This document shows positions 33,001 to 57,000 of a stretch of DNA of 64,000 nucleotides, in pieces. The position numbers were made by a program. Source of the stretch: Octopus vulgaris (lineage: Eukaryota); the NCBI GenBank assembly GCA_951406725.2, contig OX597835.1:34844001-34908000 (forward strand). The letters are read 5' to 3'. Numbering within the stretch: position 1 is the stretch's first letter; every line of letters begins with the position of its first letter.

Positions 33001-36000
33001 ACCTGAGCAACGCCGGGCGATACTGCTAGTATATATATATATATGTATCTATATCTATTTACATATTTTTTTTACTTGTTTCAGTCATTTTGACTGCACC
33101 ATGCTGGAGCACCGCCTTCATTCGAGCAACTCGACCCCGCGACTTATTCCTTGTAAGCCCAGTACTTATTCTATCGGTCACTTTTGCCGAACCGCTAAGT
33201 TACGGGGACATAAACACACCAGCATCGGTTGTCAAGCAATGCTAGGGGGACAGACACACAAACATACACGCACACACACACACACACAACACACACACAT
33301 ATATATATATATATATATATATATATATATATATATATATATATATATATATATATATATATATATATATATATATATATATATATATATATATATATAT
33401 ATATATATATATATATATATATATATATATATATATATATATATATATATATATATATATATATATATATATATATATATATATATATATATATATATAT
33501 ATATATATATATATATATATATATATATATATATATATATATATATATATATATATATATATATATATATATATATATACATATATATATATATACATAT
33601 ATACGACGGTCTTCTTTCAGTTTCGGTCTACCAAATCCACTCACAAGGCTTTGGTCGGCCCGAGGCTATAGTAGAAGACACTTGCCCAAGATGCCACGCA
33701 GTGGGACTGAACCCGGAACCATGTGGTTGGTAAACAAGCTACTTACCACACAGCCACTCCTGAATTTCAAGCTTCTTTATTTTTGACAATTTCAACCACA
33801 CTTTCAATCAGAAAACTAATGTTAATCCATTGCGAGATACCATTTTTTCTTAAAACTCTGCGACTGGGTGCTATGAATAATGCACTTTATACCATTACTA
33901 CTAATTTTCTATTTTTCACCATATTTATGTGTACTGTATGTTGTCATTTAAACGTAAATGTTTTATCTAAAAGTGAAACTTTCAAATTCCAACAGGTTTC
34001 CTAGCATCACCTATAATGCAGCGCCCGAGTTCCAGCTTCCATGATGCAAGAGCTGAATAACCATCACCTGAAGTGCTTCTTTTTTTAACCCAAAGCCTTT
34101 TTTCACGGAGATGTATTATTATTGTGGAACCTCAGTTTCTGATGTTGCAATTTGTTACATACACGTTGTACCATATTATTAAAACATTGTATGTTAAGAG
34201 CTAAATTATTAAGAATATATATATATATATATATACAGGGAGAGTTTACGAAAAAAACAAAAGACGAAGACTGGTGGTGTACAAAACAAACAGATGTATT
34301 AGTATTCCGCTCTGGAATAGAAAAAGTCTTTTACGTTTCGAGCCTATGCTCTTCTACAGAAAGTGACACAGAATAAAACAAGGAGAGAAACAAGGAGAGA
34401 AAAAATGTGTGTAGTGGCTAATGATCTATCATGCCAACACTATATGAAAACTAAAACAAAATTTCAATGAAGAATATCAATGGAATCCTTAATTTCTTTG
34501 GGTTAATAATGAATCGCATGTTCCTTCGAATATCCTATATATCCCTTGTAATTATATTATGTCTACTTTGCCATACATGGTTCAAATTGTATTTACCTCT
34601 CGTCAAAACTTCTAAGAATATGTTAAGTTTTATAAGCAACAAGAACAAACATGAGAAAAAATTAGAAAACACATCGAAAGATGCGCTTGCAAACGAACCT
34701 GATAGATATCTCATTGATACAATTGGTTGTAAAATATTAGCAATTGATATACCTGAAACTAATTTTAACATTAATCGTTCCTCAGTAGTATGCCCTGGTC
34801 CAGCAAGGTTAACAAAAGTCGTTGGTGCAATGTTGTACGTGAACCAATCAATTAAAGCAGTTCATTACTCGAACAAAATTAAACGCTGTCAGAAGTGGAA
34901 TATTAAACGAGGTGACAACGATAATAGTATTGTTCTTGGAAAACCGATTACCTTTCATAACCAAACGAAAATTGATGCAGAGTTCAGTTTGATAAAATGT
35001 GAAGGAGTTAATAATTCCGTGTTATATACAGATTTCCACAGTCGTATCATTGATAAAGAACATGTGCAGAAGAAGTTGAAATCTCAGTCTGGTAAAAGAG
35101 CTGAAGATCGTCCGCTTAGTGTTCTTCTTATTGGAATTGATTCAACGTCTCGCAATAGCTTCTCTAGGCAAATGCCTCGTTTAAAGAAGTACCTTCTAGA
35201 AACACTAAAAGCTTATTCGTTTCCCGGATTAACAAGAGTTGGTGTGAATACTCTTCCGAATATAATACCGTTATTAACAGGAAAATTTTTGAACGAAAGT
35301 AAATATCACCAAGGTATGTCTTTTGACTCAGTAGATTTTATATGGAAAAACTATAGTTCCAAAAATGCTATAACACTTTTGGTAGAGGACCGTCCAAGAA
35401 CTGGAGCCTTTAATTTTTACCGCCGTGGCTTTGTGAAATCACCGACTGATTTCTATATTCGACCGCTGACACTTGCGATGGCGAAGAATAGATCTCACAA
35501 AGAATTCTGTGTGGGCCCTGTCACCGAGTCTGAACAAATTATACATTATACCAAGCAGTTTCTAAAGTTGTACGGGACATCTTTCTATTTTGCTTTTATT
35601 TTTTTCACAGACTGGAATCACGATCGCTTGCATGGTGCGGCTAGATGGGAAGACAAGCTTTTGGGGTTTTTTCAGTGGCTTCATCAATCAAAAACACTAA
35701 ACAACACTTTACTATTTTTCTTCGGGGATCATGGTTACCGCATGGGTGGATTTCGTACAACTGTCGCTGGAAGTCATGAAGCAAATTTACCTTTTTCATT
35801 TTTTATTGTCCCAGAATGGTTCAAGATCAAACACAAATCAAAAGCCAATTCTATTCATAGAAACCAAAATCGTCTTGTGACACTTTTCGATTTTCATGCC
35901 ACTCTTTCTGAGAATCTGAACAGAGGGGAACAAACTCGAATGATGACGAGTAACAGAAGCATCAGTCTTATGTCACCAATACCAAGTAACAGAACTTGCA

Positions 36001-54000: not shown

Positions 54001-57000
54001 TGGAGAACTACATTGCGTGGAAACAGTTGTAGTGATTACAAATGAATGTTGACTCCACCTTATTCAATTACACACACACACACACAAACACACACACACA
54101 CACACACACACACACACACACACACACACATATATATATATATATATATATATATATATATATATATATATATATAGATAGATAGATAGATAGATAGATA
54201 GATAGATAGATAGATAGATAGATAGATAGATAGATAGATAGATAGATAGATAGATAGATAGATAGATAGATAGATAGATAGATAGATAGATAGATAGATA
54301 GATAGATAGATAGATAAACATCTCATAATTTGGAACAAGCAAAATGGCTAGTAGAAAAATCTCAAGAAGAGATCAATGTAGTAAGAGATCAAAGCCAATC
54401 GCTACATCAAAGTAGCTGTTGAATGTTACTACTAGTTTAACCCCAGGCAGATCGTCCACAAGCTGGTTTATATAACAAACAGCCATAAAGTTTGTTTTAA
54501 ATGTATTCAATGATTCTGAGACATTAGCATAATTTATTTGTAAATAGTCTGAGGATGAAGTGTATAACAGATATCTGCAGGATACCAGAGGAAGTGAGAG
54601 GATACCACAGGGAATCAGAGATTACTAGAGAATATCACAAAATATCAGAGGATATCAGAGAATGCCAGAGGGTATCAGAGGATGCAGGAGGATATCATGG
54701 GATATCGCAAGATATTAAGAGGATATCAGAGTTTGCACTCGCGAAACGGGCGCAAAGCAGCTTATTGGCGGACATTCGGAATAGTTATCATGACCTTATT
54801 GAGAAAAGTACAAGTAAAATCCCACCAGAAAAGGCTCATGGAAATGTAGGACATAAATGTAAATAATCAAATATTGTGAACAAAAGATTCTTTCTCAAAC
54901 GGAATCAGTCAACTAGTTCATATCCCATTTTCCGTCTCAACGAGTTTGTGATACCTATTCCTAAAGTCGATGACACCCGTTTTATGAGTACAATAGTTTA
55001 TAGGCAATTCTGGCTGTTTATAGAAGAGGGTATATAATTAATTGTTATTTGGATCAATGGTTATTATGTTACATGTGTTTAGTTTGATGCTGGAAACCTT
55101 TAAGAAAACATTTAATAAGTTATATGAACGAATGTAGAAAAGACGATTAAATAGAAATCAAACGGTTTTCGTACAAAAGCAAACCGGTTTCAGTTTACGT
55201 GTTTTGACGCAATGAGATTGGTTACCATATATGTTGATTCGTAAAATTTCTCCAAACGGGTGAAAGTTTTTCCCACGATACTCTCCCAAAGATTGGAAAA
55301 CTCCTTCACTTGGTGACACTTTTAACGTTACTGAGTATGTAGTTCTATATTTATAAGCACGTATTACCTTTTTCAATTTCAGTTTTGCGCATTTTTTCGC
55401 TTTTGCTTTTTCTAAACGTTTATTCAGTGTTTTCACAACAGCGATGGCTGCTTCGGTCACGTTCACATTTTTAACTCTCAGTTGCTTTCTTGCTGAGAAA
55501 CACTCACAGAATTGTGCAGGTATTTCTGCTCCCTTGCAAGTTCTGTTACTTGGTATTGGTGACATAAGACTGATGCTTCTGTTACTCGTCATCATTCGAG
55601 TTTGTTCCCCTCTGTTCAGATTTTCAGAAAGAGTGGCATGAAAATCGAAAAGTGTCACAAGACGATTTTGGTTTCTATGAATAGAATTGGCTTTTGATTT
55701 GTGTTTGATCTTGAACCATTCTGGGACAATAAAAAATGAAAAAGGTAAATTTGCTTCATGACTTCCAGCGACAGTTGTACGAAATCCACCCATGCGGAAA
55801 CCATGATCCCCGAAGAAAAGTAGTAAAGTGTTGTTTAGTGTTTTTGATTGATGAAGCCACTGATAAAACCCCAAAAGCTTGTCTTCCCATCTAGCCGCAC
55901 CATGCAAGTCATCGTGCGTCCAACGTGTGAAAAATGTGAGAGCAAAATAAAAAGACGTTTTATACTTTTCTAAAAACTGCTTGGTATAATGTTCTACATA
56001 ATCCGTCTCAGGAAGAGGGCCTACACAGAACTTGTTCCGAAATTTGTTCTTGTTCATTGCAATAGTCAAAGGTCTAAAATAATAATCAGTTGGTTGTTTT
56101 CGAAAACCACGCGCTGCATAATTGAATGCTGTTATGTCGGGGTCATCCTCTGCTATAAATGTTATGGCATTTCTCGAACTATAGTTTTTCCATAAAAGAT
56201 CCACGGAATCATAAACCTGGCCGGAACGCCACTTAGTCTCCTCCAAAAATTTTCCTGATAATAATGCTAGTAAATTTGGTAGGGTATTTTTACCAACCCT
56301 TGTAAATCCAGGGAACGAATAAGCTTTTAGTGTTTCTAGAAGGTACTTCTTTAAACGAGGCATTTGCCTAGAGAAGCTATTGCGAGACGTTGAATCAATT
56401 CCAATAAGAAGAACACTAAGCGGACGATCTTCAGCTCTTTTACCAGACTGAGATTTCAACTTCTTCTGCACATGTTCTTTATCAATGATACGACTGTGGA
56501 AATCTGTATATAACACGGAATTATTAACTCCTTCACATTTTATCAAACTGAACTCTGCATCAATTTTCGTTTGGTTATGAAAGGTAATCGGTTTTCCAAG
56601 AACAATACTATTATCGTTGTCACCTCGTTTAATATTCCACTTCTGACAGCGTTTAATTTTGTTCGAGTAATGAACTGCTTTAATTGATTGGTTCACGTAC
56701 AACATTGCACCAACGACTTTTGTTAACCTTGGTGGACCAGGGCATACCACTGGAGAACGATTAATATCAAAATCATCTAATGGAACCTGGAATGCTAGTA
56801 TATTACAACCGATTGTATCAATGAGATATTCATCAGAAGTATGCTCAGGTTTTCTTTCGTGTTTCATCTTAAAGACTGGATCCTTCCAATAATTCTTAAA
56901 AATAAAATCCATTTTGAACCAGGCTATTGTTAGTAAACATAGTCCAATCACAAGAATTCGTAATAAATACCGAAATATAGCACGTGTCATCTTGTAGCAT

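What the first reader, a model, noticed from the sequence alone, without database searches (positions are those of the whole stretch)
34509..56990. DUF229 paralogue pair with constant framework blocks and a divergent active-site cassette
Seen: the two genes align without a gap from 34804<->56731 to 36331<->55204 (coordinate sum 91535 at every junction checked). Block 1 (34804-35221, 418 bp) looks identical by eye, including silent sites. Block 2 (35627-36331) shows only a handful of differences, mostly at its start. The 405 bp between them differ at about 53 of 133 residues by manual count and at many silent sites, and the N-terminal TM/stem is also highly diverged. Known: DUF229 belongs to the alkaline-phosphatase superfamily. 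Inferred: NTLPN carries the nucleophile Thr and HD/GDHG are metal ligands, so the variable cassette runs almost exactly from nucleophile to HD and includes charge swaps (EDRPR/EDDPD, TDWNHDR/TRWTHDD). This suggests gene conversion homogenises the scaffold while selection keeps two different substrate pockets, a constant/variable architecture in an uncharacterised enzyme family.
Basis: partly seen in the sequence, partly recalled or inferred. Interest (0 to 1): 0.8.

Follow-up and report, generated by a model that had tools for sequence, protein, structure and literature searches.

The report
Octopus twin enzymes with divergent cores
Two neighbouring, oppositely oriented octopus genes for an uncharacterised enzyme keep overwriting most of each other's sequence, yet the stretch around the catalytic centre has stayed different since before two octopus species split; this is a clean example of a known pattern of duplicate-gene evolution.

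Summary
Two intact single-exon DUF229 genes lie convergently 18.8 kb apart: A at 34467-36368 (+) and B at 55158-56990 (-). They align without gaps. Block 1 is 418 bp with no differences. The cassette differs at 129 of 408 nt and 53 of 136 codons, with dS 1.22 and dN/dS 0.235. Block 2 is 705 bp with 4 differences.

The framework groups by species (21 species-type sites, 1 paralogue-type). The cassette and both termini group by paralogue (25 against 0). AU tests reject the opposite groupings.

This is interlocus gene conversion with a conversion-resistant island over the catalytic core. The island is older than every other part of the pair. Only the B cassette is accelerated (15 derived residues against 3). 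Both copies keep all near-invariant family residues, and both fold confidently.

Selection for two specificities is the likeliest cause of the island. It is not shown, because sequence divergence alone would now block conversion.

The "constant/variable architecture" claim overreaches. There are only two cassette types, each conserved across species, and the framework itself evolves quickly between species.

This is a new member of a known kind: the "peak of divergence" seen in the red/green opsin genes.

The parts
34467..36368 (+). Gene A: intact single-exon ORF of 633 aa. DUF229, with an N-terminal membrane anchor/stem helix and a lumenal catalytic domain.
   Evidence: ORF. PF02995 at 345 bits. 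AF2 pLDDT 91.4, helix 6-76. Differs at 4 of 633 aa from O. sinensis XP_029657266.1.
55158..56990 (-). Gene B: intact single-exon ORF of 610 aa. DUF229 paralogue, convergent with A.
   Evidence: ORF. PF02995 at 351 bits. AF2 pLDDT 93.0. Differs at 5 of 610 aa from O. sinensis XP_029657267.1.
34467..34691 (+). A: TM anchor/stem. Only weakly alignable with B (56844-56990), with indels.
   Evidence: Alignments.
34692..34803 (+). A: first lumenal stretch at intermediate divergence (partner 56732-56843). Paralogue-specific in both species.
   Evidence: 21 of 99 nt differ, pS 0.34. 8 paralogue-type and 0 species-type sites.
34804..35221 (+). Framework block 1 in A, the converted tract. Contains D225 of IGIDS.
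   Evidence: 418 of 418 identical to 56314-56731. 0 of 51 four-fold sites differ. 7 species-type and 0 paralogue-type sites. AU test rejects the paralogue clade, p=0.021.
56314..56731 (-). Framework block 1 in B.
   Evidence: Same as for block 1 in A.
35222..35626 (+). Cassette in A (residues about 253-387). Ancestral-type catalytic core: NTLPN (T262), E307-D308, H385-D386.
   Evidence: 129 of 408 nt and 53 of 136 aa differ from B; dS 1.22, dN/dS 0.235. A clade 97/97*. 3 derived residues against 15 in B.
55909..56313 (-). Cassette in B. Derived, faster-evolving catalytic core that keeps all near-invariant residues.
   Evidence: B clade 100/100*, stem length 0.39 against 0.19. Invariants kept. 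Best database matches are its own orthologue at 86%, then A at 62%.
35627..36331 (+). Framework block 2 in A, the converted tract. Contains GDHG (D421/H422) and the C-terminal beta domain.
   Evidence: 4 of 705 differences from 55204-55908. 0 of 95 four-fold sites differ. 14 species-type sites. AU test rejects the paralogue clade, p=0.00026.
55204..55908 (-). Framework block 2 in B.
   Evidence: Same as for block 2 in A.
36332..36790 (+). A: C-terminal tail plus about 420 bp of 3' flank, homologous to B (about 54736-55203) at intermediate divergence.
   Evidence: Tail: 7 of 33 nt differ. Flank: 320 matches, 83 mismatches and 69 gap columns, 79.4% identity. blastn extent.
54736..55203 (-). B: C-terminal tail plus the homologous 3' flank.

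Best explanation
A and B are old inverted duplicates of a type-II membrane-anchored, lumenal DUF229 enzyme. DUF229 is a Thr-nucleophile, metal-dependent member of the sulfatase-like branch of the alkaline-phosphatase superfamily.

Non-allelic (interlocus) gene conversion between the two inverted copies keeps two tracts nearly identical within a genome: 418 bp and 705 bp. These tracts evolve in concert in each octopus lineage.

The 405-bp catalytic-core cassette between them escaped conversion first, since it has the highest silent divergence. The gene ends and the 3' flank escaped later. All of these were already paralogue-specific before O. bimaculoides split from the window's lineage.

Shown:
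- the mosaic;
- concerted evolution of the framework against paralogue-wise descent of the cassette;
- the cassette's greater age;
- asymmetric acceleration of the B cassette;
- retention of all near-invariant residues and of the fold in both copies;
- overall purifying selection in the cassette (dN/dS 0.235).

Inferred:
- The island began because alleles in which one cassette was overwritten by the other were selected against. In this reading B acquired a changed specificity or regulation around the active centre, including charge reversals next to E307-D308 and H385.
- About 32% nucleotide divergence now also blocks heteroduplex formation mechanically.
- Homogenisation of the framework is a passive by-product, not something selected for.
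For: Mosaic and its significance.

Framework by species, cassette and ends by paralogue:
- 21 species-type against 1 paralogue-type site in the blocks, and 0 against 25 in the cassette plus ends. Fisher p=1.8e-12.
- Trees: cassette A clade 97/97* and B clade 100/100*. In block 2, Ob_A+Ob_B has 88/87 and the four window/O. sinensis sequences 91/90.
- AU tests: block 1 rejects the paralogue clade at p=0.021 and block 2 at p=0.00026. The cassette rejects the species clade at p=4e-56.

Conversion after speciation in both lineages. Polarised by outgroups, the derived shared state is in window/O. sinensis at residue 133 and in O. bimaculoides at residues 126, 161 and 530.

Recent or ongoing exchange, from the O. 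sinensis proteins, which come from a different assembly:
- Block 1 differs at 3 of 138 residues between the O. sinensis paralogues.
- Window A carries the B state at residue 122.
- O. sinensis A carries the B state at residue 255.
- The F/Y states at A402/B376 and A424/B398 are reciprocally swapped between the two assemblies.

The cassette is older than the rest. Four-fold sites differ at 18 of 32, against 83 of 403 mismatches in the 3' flank (p=2.7e-5) and 4 of 15 in the N- and C-terminal ends (p=0.07).

No third paralogue with a B-like cassette was found.

B is accelerated: 15 B-derived against 3 A-derived residues, p=0.0075. Window-versus-O. bimaculoides differences are 12 of 68 in B against 3 of 68 in A, p=0.026.

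Both copies are functional by sequence. All 20 near-invariant cassette residues are kept in both. ORFs are intact in three genomes. AF2 gives pLDDT 91.4 and 93.0 with the same secondary-structure elements.

The pattern matches the published 'peak of divergence' signature of selection under gene conversion (passages read in PMC3924837).
Against: - No direct evidence of selection against converted cassettes. dN/dS over the cassette is 0.235, so there is no gene-wide signal of positive selection.
- At about 32% nucleotide divergence the island would persist without any selection.
- In O. bimaculoides the paralogues differ at 15 of 138 residues in block 1. Conversion there is old or has stopped, so the architecture is not uniformly maintained.
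- B's faster cassette evolution, and D386N in the O. bimaculoides B orthologue, would also fit partly relaxed constraint.
- All cross-species tests are at the protein level. The O. bimaculoides A model lacks residues about 320-487.
- There are no read-level data, so perfect identity in block 1 could be slightly inflated by polishing.
- The positions of the 53 differences relative to the active site were not measured in 3D.
Confidence: 0.62

Rival explanations
1. Passive barrier, no selection for two pockets. The divergent island arose without functional divergence: either one copy's core was replaced once from a now-lost or unsampled distant paralogue, or constraint on B was relaxed. It persists only because recombination cannot run through about 32% mismatched DNA. 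Conversion of the flanks is equally passive.
For: - Cassette silent divergence (18 of 32 four-fold sites) far exceeds that of the adjacent unconverted ends and the 3' flank. A one-off import would produce exactly this.
- B evolves faster between species and the O. bimaculoides B orthologue has D386N, which is compatible with relaxation.
- dN/dS is 0.235, with no excess of replacements.
Against: - The search with the B cassette found no donor. After its own orthologue (86%), the best matches are A (62%) and Argonauta (59%), then 45% or less.
- B keeps every near-invariant residue and an intact ORF in three genomes.
- Identity is lowest in the centre of the island (60-66%) and rises to 76-86% at its edges. 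This fits an island growing outward from a protected core better than a block replacement with sharp ends.
Confidence: 0.25
2. Assembly artefact. The identical blocks come from collapse, mis-phasing or polishing of two similar but not identical copies.
For: - Block 1 is 100% identical in the window, whereas the O. sinensis proteins differ at 3 of 138 residues in that block.
- Two F/Y sites in block 2 are swapped between the two assemblies, which could reflect mis-assigned paralogous variants.
Against: - A second assembly shows the same mosaic. The O. sinensis proteins, both on a single 39-kb contig, differ between paralogues at 3 of 138, 52 of 136 and 3 of 234 residues in block 1, cassette and block 2.
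- O. bimaculoides shows species-specific shared residues in both blocks, which an artefact in the window cannot create.
- The blocks are embedded in unique, clearly different flanks and cassette.
Confidence: 0.05
3. A recent duplication with very fast evolution confined to the cassette, and no conversion. Alternatively, nucleotide-level purifying selection on the framework.
For: The blocks are nearly identical and the cassette is the functional core.
Against: - Cassette silent sites are near saturation (dS 1.22; 18 of 32 four-fold sites differ) while 0 of 146 four-fold sites differ in the blocks.
- The cassette types predate the split from O. bimaculoides, yet the blocks group by species.
- The framework is not conserved between species: 16 of 138 and 16 of 134 residues differ.
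Confidence: 0.02
4. B is a decaying or non-catalytic copy (a pseudoenzyme), and its cassette simply drifts.
For: B-derived changes fall at sites conserved in other cephalopod sequences, for example P268A, T271S, R309D, R311D, T312I, G313T and D382R. The B cassette also changes faster between species.
Against: - The ORF is intact in three genomes.
- All family near-invariants are retained in B, including T262, E307, D308, H385, D421 and H422.
- dN/dS is 0.235.
- The fold is predicted confidently.
Confidence: 0.06

Closest known systems
'Peak of divergence' in duplicates under interlocus gene conversion: the Teshima & Innan 2008 model and human/macaque red-green opsin exon 5, as reviewed in PMC3924837 (passages read)
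   Same: Linked duplicates are kept similar by ongoing conversion. The flanks group by species, and a short internal region carrying the function-defining residues groups by paralogue and forms a divergence peak.
   Different: - The copies here are inverted (convergent, 18.8 kb apart), not tandem.
- The genes are intronless, so the converted tracts are coding.
- The peak covers 405 bp and 53 residues, not a few known tuning sites.
- The functional difference is unknown.
- The gene ends have also escaped conversion.
GOT1 paralogues of the copepod Tigriopus californicus (PMC3728101; only the start of the abstract seen in the listing)
   Same: [quoted passage not shown]
   Different: A different enzyme family and taxon. 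I did not read the paper's body, so no detailed comparison is made.
Thr/Ser-nucleophile phospho-alcohol transferases of the sulfatase-like fold: LtaS/LtaP, EptC, BcsG (PDB 2w5q, 4uop, 4tn0, 6pcz)
   Same: - Among the best Foldseek neighbours (E about 1e-7, probability 1.0).
- Profile hits to LtaS/LtaP around the DHG motif (E about 1e-3 to 3e-2).
- BcsG clusters are the nearest named language-model neighbours (score 0.88, a lead only).
- DUF229 has a Thr where these enzymes have their nucleophile. That role for these enzymes is recalled knowledge, not from a call.
   Different: - 10-14% identity, with TM-scores of 0.28-0.34 on the query.
- One N-terminal helix instead of a multi-pass membrane domain.
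- An extra N-terminal beta domain and a Cys-rich C-terminal domain.
- Animal secretory-pathway topology.
- No activity is known.
Type I (S1, formylglycine) sulfatases
   Same: The best sequence-profile matches in the PDB fall over the THD...SDHG region (6hhm, E 4.9e-7). There are many Foldseek hits and a weak PF00884 match.
   Different: - PF00884 is below its gathering score: 23.3 and 21.1 bits against 25.
- The nucleophile position holds Thr in N-T-L-P-N, with no Cys or Ser and no Arg of the C/S-x-P-x-R signature. That signature is recalled, not from a call.

Membership tests
DUF229 (Pfam PF02995) | Match to the family HMM above the gathering score, over most of the model | tested here: met
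   A scores 345.1 bits and B 350.8 bits against a cut-off of 25, covering model positions 46-495 of 496.
DUF229 (Pfam PF02995) | Family near-invariant residues are present (D225, S228, R234, T262, N265, E307, D308, H385, D421, H422, G423 and the conserved Cys set) | tested here: met
   All are present in both A and B, measured against 122 non-octopod family members.
Alkaline-phosphatase superfamily, sulfatase-like branch | Core alpha/beta fold similar to solved members | tested here: met
   Foldseek gives 268 PDB matches at E<=0.001. The top ones are YejM/PbgA, 3lxq, LtaP/LtaS, EptC, BcsG and S1 sulfatases, with probability 1.0. TM-scores are only 0.26-0.34 on the query and 0.28-0.54 on the target.
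Alkaline-phosphatase superfamily, sulfatase-like branch | Nucleophile at the N-terminus of a helix after a core strand, and a D-H metal-ligand pair after a later strand | tested here: inconclusive
   - T262 is the first residue of helix 262-271.
- D421-H422 directly follow strand 414-420.
- SDHG aligns with sulfatase and LtaS DHG motifs.
- No coordinates, metal or activity data were available.
Type I formylglycine sulfatases (PF00884 / S1) | PF00884 above the gathering score, and a Cys/Ser nucleophile in a C/S-x-P-x-R motif | tested here: not met
   PF00884 scores 23.3 and 21.1 bits, below 25. The nucleophile position is Thr, in NTLPN. The motif definition is recalled.
LtaS/EptA/BcsG-type lipid-dependent phospho-alcohol transferases | Multi-pass N-terminal membrane domain joined to the catalytic domain | tested here: not met
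   The models show only one N-terminal helix: A residues 6-76 and B residues 4-35.
Duplicates with a selection-maintained divergence peak under interlocus gene conversion | Converted flanks group by species, and the peak groups by paralogue | tested here: met
   Site patterns are 21:1 against 0:25. Supported by the trees and AU tests. Tested at the protein level against one outgroup species pair.
Duplicates with a selection-maintained divergence peak under interlocus gene conversion | Identity at silent sites in the converted tracts, and significant tract lengths | tested here: met
   0 of 146 four-fold sites differ in the blocks. 0 of 10000 shuffles reach the observed runs.
Duplicates with a selection-maintained divergence peak under interlocus gene conversion | The peak holds the residues responsible for a functional difference, and converted alleles are selected against | not testable with these tools
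   This needs biochemistry and population resequencing. The only indirect evidence is B-lineage acceleration and retention of catalytic residues.

The most novel reading that the evidence does not exclude
The B cassette is a neofunctionalised catalytic core, with charge reversals beside E307-D308 and H385 and the loss of two N-glycan sequons. It has been actively protected from overwriting for the whole history of the pair and is still adapting.

If so, the 53-residue difference map is a natural specificity-swap experiment for the uncharacterised DUF229 family. Given its nearest structural relatives (LtaS, EptC, BcsG), the family's members may be lumenal phospho-alcohol transferases or hydrolases acting on invertebrate glycoconjugates.
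Probability: 0.15. Interest if true: 0.65.

Novelty: new member of a known kind. Interest (0 to 1): 0.45.

Why it matters
This is a clean natural example of mosaic concerted evolution. It has sharp boundaries and three age tiers, and the cross-species comparison gives the pattern expected under conversion.

DUF229 is a large animal family (3799 representatives at E<=0.001). In the searches I found no paper whose listed title or abstract concerns its function. I read passages of only one of them (PMC8059625).

The divergence peak points to a defined set of residues around the presumed nucleophile as candidates for specificity. That gives an experimental handle through cassette-swap chimeras.

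It does not reveal a new evolutionary mechanism.

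Tried and rejected
- **Third-paralogue donor for the B cassette.** A search with B residues 225-365 found none. 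The database is limited to predicted proteins of 335-1068 aa that share words with the query.
- **More copies in the window.** tblastn finds only A and B, plus one chance hit at E=8.8.
- **GC-biased conversion signature.** GC3 is 0.32-0.33 in the blocks and 0.34-0.35 in the cassette, so there is no excess.
- **Apparent same-register similarity at 33500-33599.** This is the (AT)n microsatellite, not homology.
- **Inversion by crossover between the inverted copies, as an explanation of the swapped F/Y sites.** Rejected. The C-terminal tails stay linked to their own N-termini and cassettes in the window, O. sinensis and O. bimaculoides, and the site between the two swapped sites (A417) is not swapped.
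- **Single-sequence search of the PDB.** It gave only one marginal hit. The profile search was needed.
- **Mapping the variable residues in 3D.** The model coordinates are not exposed to the script machine, so no distances were measured.
- **Nucleotide-level dS, GENECONV or trees across species.** All cross-species tests are therefore on proteins.
- **Literature on the loci.** 0 papers mention LOC115231360, LOC115231361, LOC106874152 or A0A0L8GXE7.
- **Search combining gene conversion, inverted repeat, active site and island of divergence.** It gave nothing relevant.
- **Supplementary files.** They were closed and I did not ask for them. The extended table S3 of PMC8059625, which covers the DUF229 expansion in bivalves, was therefore not seen.

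Full report
**WHAT IS THERE**

The window has no N. It holds exactly two DUF229 genes. tblastn with protein A finds A, B and one chance hit at E=8.8.

- Gene A is an uninterrupted ORF at 34467-36368 on the + strand (633 aa).
- Gene B is an uninterrupted ORF at 55158-56990 on the - strand (610 aa).
- The genes are convergent, with 18.8 kb of repeat-rich spacer between the stop codons.
- Both match Pfam PF02995 (DUF229) at 345 and 351 bits against a cut-off of 25. Their matches to Sulfatase PF00884 (23.3 and 21.1 bits, cut-off 25) are below threshold.

The window's proteins differ at 4 of 633 and 5 of 610 residues from Octopus sinensis XP_029657266.1 (LOC115231360) and XP_029657267.1 (LOC115231361). 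Those two lie together on a 39-kb contig of another assembly. The window is therefore from an octopus of, or very near, that species.

**CHECK OF THE OBSERVATION**

The ungapped register x <-> 91535-x holds from about 34692 to the stop codon.

| Segment | Coordinates | Result |
|---|---|---|
| Block 1 | 34804-35221 | 418 of 418 identical |
| Block 2 | 35627-36331 | 4 differences (35671, 35715, 35737, 35912) |
| Cassette (as codons) | 35220-35627 | 129 of 408 nt and 53 of 136 residues differ |

Cassette values are pS 0.60, dS 1.22, dN 0.288 and dN/dS 0.235. Four-fold degenerate sites differ at 18 of 32 in the cassette, 0 of 51 in block 1 and 0 of 95 in block 2.

A permutation of the 162 differences over 1659 nt never produced an identical run longer than 167 nt in 10000 shuffles. 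The observed runs are 419 and 418 nt. The same holds for third positions alone.

**THREE TIERS OF DIVERGENCE**

- Homology runs on for about 420 bp past the stop codons, to about 36790 in A and about 54736 in B. There it has 79.4% identity (320 matches, 83 mismatches, 69 gap columns).
- The coding stretches just outside the blocks are also intermediate: pS 0.34 for 34707-34805 and 0.26 for 36333-36365.
- The cassette is significantly more diverged at silent sites than the 3' flank (18 of 32 against 83 of 403, p=2.7e-5). The trend against the coding ends is weaker (4 of 15, p=0.07).
- Inside the cassette, identity is lowest in the middle (60-66% per 50 bp) and rises to 76-86% at both edges.
- Upstream of the ORFs there is no homology. 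The TM/stem regions align only weakly, with indels.

My reading, which is an inference: the cassette escaped homogenisation first, the gene ends and 3' flank escaped later, and two tracts are still exchanging.

**THE CROSS-SPECIES TEST**

The protein search returned two O. bimaculoides proteins.

- P0003 (LOC106874152, 606 aa) has the B-type N-terminus, cassette and C-terminus.
- P0004 (A0A0L8GXE7, 497 aa) has the A-type ones. Its model lacks residues about 320-487.

The other relatives used were one Argonauta hians protein (P0005, partial) and two unnamed relatives at about 46% identity (P0006, P0007).

I classified every variable site from nt 34692 onward among six sequences: window, O. sinensis and O. 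bimaculoides, each with A and B.

| Segment | Species-type sites | Paralogue-type sites | Other notes |
|---|---|---|---|
| Block 1 | 7 | 0 | 13 sites where only the O. bimaculoides pair differs; 3 mixed |
| Block 2 | 14 | 1 (residue 622, at the block's edge) | 5 sites where only the O. bimaculoides pair differs; 7 sites where only Ob_B differs and Ob_A is missing; 3 mixed |
| Cassette | 0 | 14, plus 21 more where the O. bimaculoides A model is missing | 18 mixed; 3 sites where only the O. bimaculoides pair differs; 3 where only Ob_B differs and Ob_A is missing |
| N-terminal end | 0 | 8 | 3 sites where only the O. bimaculoides pair differs; 3 mixed |
| C-terminal end | 0 | 3 | 2 mixed |

Framework against cassette plus ends is 21:1 against 0:25 (p=1.8e-12).

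ML trees agree:
- Cassette: A clade 97/97*, B clade 100/100*.
- Block 2: Ob_A+Ob_B 88/87, and the four window/O. sinensis sequences 91/90.
- Block 1: unresolved among the six.

AU tests:
- Block 1 rejects an A-paralogue clade at p=0.021.
- Block 2 rejects it at p=0.00026.
- The cassette rejects an O. bimaculoides species clade at p=4e-56.

Outgroup states put derived shared residues in both lineages: residue 133 in window/O. sinensis, and residues 126, 161 and 530 in O. bimaculoides. Conversion therefore acted after speciation on both sides.

In O. bimaculoides the paralogues now differ at 15 of 138 residues in block 1 and 5 of 134 in the covered part of block 2. Conversion there is older or rarer.

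**SIGNS OF RECENT EXCHANGE**

These come from comparing the window with the O. sinensis assembly.

- The O. sinensis pair differs at 3 of 138 residues in block 1, where the window has none.
- Window A has the B state (M) at residue 122, where O. sinensis A and O. bimaculoides A have I.
- O. sinensis A has the B state (F) at residue 255, at the cassette edge.
- The derived Tyr residues at A402/B376 and A424/B398 sit on opposite paralogues in the two assemblies, while A417 between them is unchanged.

This looks like variants shared between the paralogues through conversion. Mis-phasing in one assembly cannot be excluded.

**WHAT THE CASSETTE IS**

I aligned A and B with 126 relatives, 122 of them non-octopod. 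These came from a family of 3799 library representatives at E<=0.001.

The cassette is the densest part of the protein in conserved positions. It has 47 of 136 positions at 60% conservation or more, against 30 of 138 in block 1 and 80 of 235 in block 2.

Both A and B keep every near-invariant cassette residue: G254, N261, T262, N265, G272, D287, W293, T303, E307, D308, F315, G321, F322, P326, D328, Y330, R332, C348, F375 and H385. D225 lies in block 1 and D421-H422-G423 in block 2.

- D382, the site of the TDW/TRW swap, is not conserved in the family.
- D386 is at 71% conservation and is N in the O. bimaculoides B orthologue.

The A type is ancestral. With Argonauta and the two distant relatives concordant, 15 differences are B-derived and 3 are A-derived (p=0.0075). 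The B-derived ones include P268A, T271S, R309D, R311D, T312I, G313T and D382R.

B also changes faster between species: 12 of 68 against 3 of 68 (p=0.026). Sixteen of the 53 differences change charge. A has two N-glycosylation sequons in the cassette that B lacks, at N276 and N341.

**STRUCTURE AND FAMILY**

AlphaFold2 with the 128-row alignments gives confident models: A at pLDDT 91.4 and pTM 0.86, B at 93.0 and 0.91. The two have the same secondary-structure elements.

Features of the A model:
- a long N-terminal helix (residues 6-76), the membrane anchor and stem;
- T262 as the first residue of helix 262-271;
- strands 218-224, 302-307, 374-380 and 414-420, which end at D225, E307-D308, the D382-H385-D386 loop and D421-H422 respectively.

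The A/B differences cluster in four places (sequence positions, elements):
- the nucleophile helix (266-271);
- the loop after it (276-286);
- the long loop after E307-D308 (309-331);
- around H385 (382, 384, 387).

They also fall in helices 332-340 and 354-369. That the first four face the active site follows from the usual topology of this superfamily.

Database comparisons:
- Foldseek against the PDB gives YejM/PbgA, 3lxq, LtaP/LtaS, EptC, BcsG and many S1 sulfatases. E is about 1e-8 to 1e-6, probability 1.0, query TM-score 0.26-0.34 and identity 10-14%.
- The family profile matches S1 sulfatases best over the THD...SDHG region (6hhm, E 4.9e-7), and LtaS/LtaP at 1e-3 to 3e-2.
- The language-model atlas, with DUF229 excluded, puts BcsG clusters first at 0.88. 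This is below the 0.9 level and is only a lead.

Conclusion: DUF229 is a distant sulfatase-like member of the alkaline-phosphatase superfamily. It has Thr in the nucleophile position. It is neither a formylglycine sulfatase nor a multi-pass lipid-dependent transferase.

My mechanistic commitment is an inference. I take it to be a metal-dependent lumenal enzyme that forms a covalent phospho- (or sulfo-) threonine intermediate on T262. A and B would then differ in what they accept around that centre.

**COMPARISON WITH WHAT IS KNOWN**

The pattern is the published 'peak of divergence' of duplicates under interlocus gene conversion. The review PMC3924837 (passages read) describes how selection on a small target gives high divergence there and low divergence elsewhere. 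It cites Teshima & Innan 2008, the red/green opsin genes (exon 5 grouping by paralogue, introns by species), and uses in Drosophila and yeast. PMC3728101 (abstract start seen) reports such islands in copepod GOT1 paralogues.

The present case differs in several ways. The copies are inverted and intronless. The peak spans the whole catalytic core. The gene ends have escaped too. The function is unknown.

On DUF229 itself:
- The prefix search found 31 papers, mostly about DUF229x domains.
- The whole-word search for DUF229, PF02995 and IPR004245 found 8, of which 7 were listed. None has a listed title or abstract about its function.
- I read passages only of PMC8059625, which reports a DUF229 expansion in bivalves.
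- No paper mentions the four locus or accession names.

**VERDICT**

- Gene conversion of the framework and paralogue-wise descent of the cassette are well supported.
- Selection for two pockets is the likeliest cause of the island but is unproven. Divergence alone now suffices to keep it.
- 'Constant/variable architecture' is an overstatement. The A cassette is the most conserved part between species (3 of 68), while the framework changes at about 12% (16 of 138 and 16 of 134).
- This is a neat new member of a known kind, of moderate interest. Its main value is as a pointer to candidate specificity residues in an uncharacterised enzyme family.

**LEFT OPEN**

- Read-level validation of the identical blocks.
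- 3D mapping of the differences.
- Expression and activity.
- Supplementary tables, which were not seen.

Noticed in passing
window 40195-44299: Two direct repeats of about 1.1 kb (40195-41227 and 43244-44299, 97-99% identical) flank a GC-rich core (GC 0.48-0.53). The core itself holds a 309-bp tandem duplication (42053-42672, 87-88%). This is an LTR-like arrangement in the spacer between the two genes. The long ORFs inside have no Pfam match.
   Followed up: partly
window 14496-17503: Retroelement remnants in a GC-richer stretch: an ORF with a zf-CCHC zinc knuckle (14496-15743) and an ORF with zf-RVT, the zinc-binding region of reverse transcriptases (16955-17503).
   Followed up: partly
window 32662-33603: Very long dinucleotide microsatellites lie just upstream of gene A: (AC)144 at 32662-32949 and (AT)152 at 33299-33603. 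The second mimics same-register similarity to the B side.
   Followed up: yes
window 38401-38635, 39445-39678, 46949-47444, 25913-26368, 29269-29840: A dispersed repeat of about 235-245 bp (SINE-like) is present in many copies and both orientations at 86-95% identity. It includes a tandem pair at 46949-47444.
   Followed up: no
window 35670-35738 and 55797-55865 (A residues 402, 424; B residues 376, 398): Two Phe/Tyr sites are reciprocally swapped between the paralogues when the window is compared with the O. sinensis proteins, while the site between them (A417) is not. This is either variation shared through conversion or mis-phased paralogous variants in one assembly.
   Followed up: partly
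window 34467-34620: The database protein identical to gene A is 582 aa and starts at Met52, which would remove the membrane anchor. The O. sinensis record uses the full 633-aa ORF, and the anchor is conserved in the O. bimaculoides orthologue. The shorter start is probably an annotation choice.
   Followed up: partly
window 31191-32393 and 3276-3929: Long ORFs of 400 and 217 aa have no significant Pfam family. The only match is Imm5 at E=0.002, below its cut-off. They are probably not genes.
   Followed up: no
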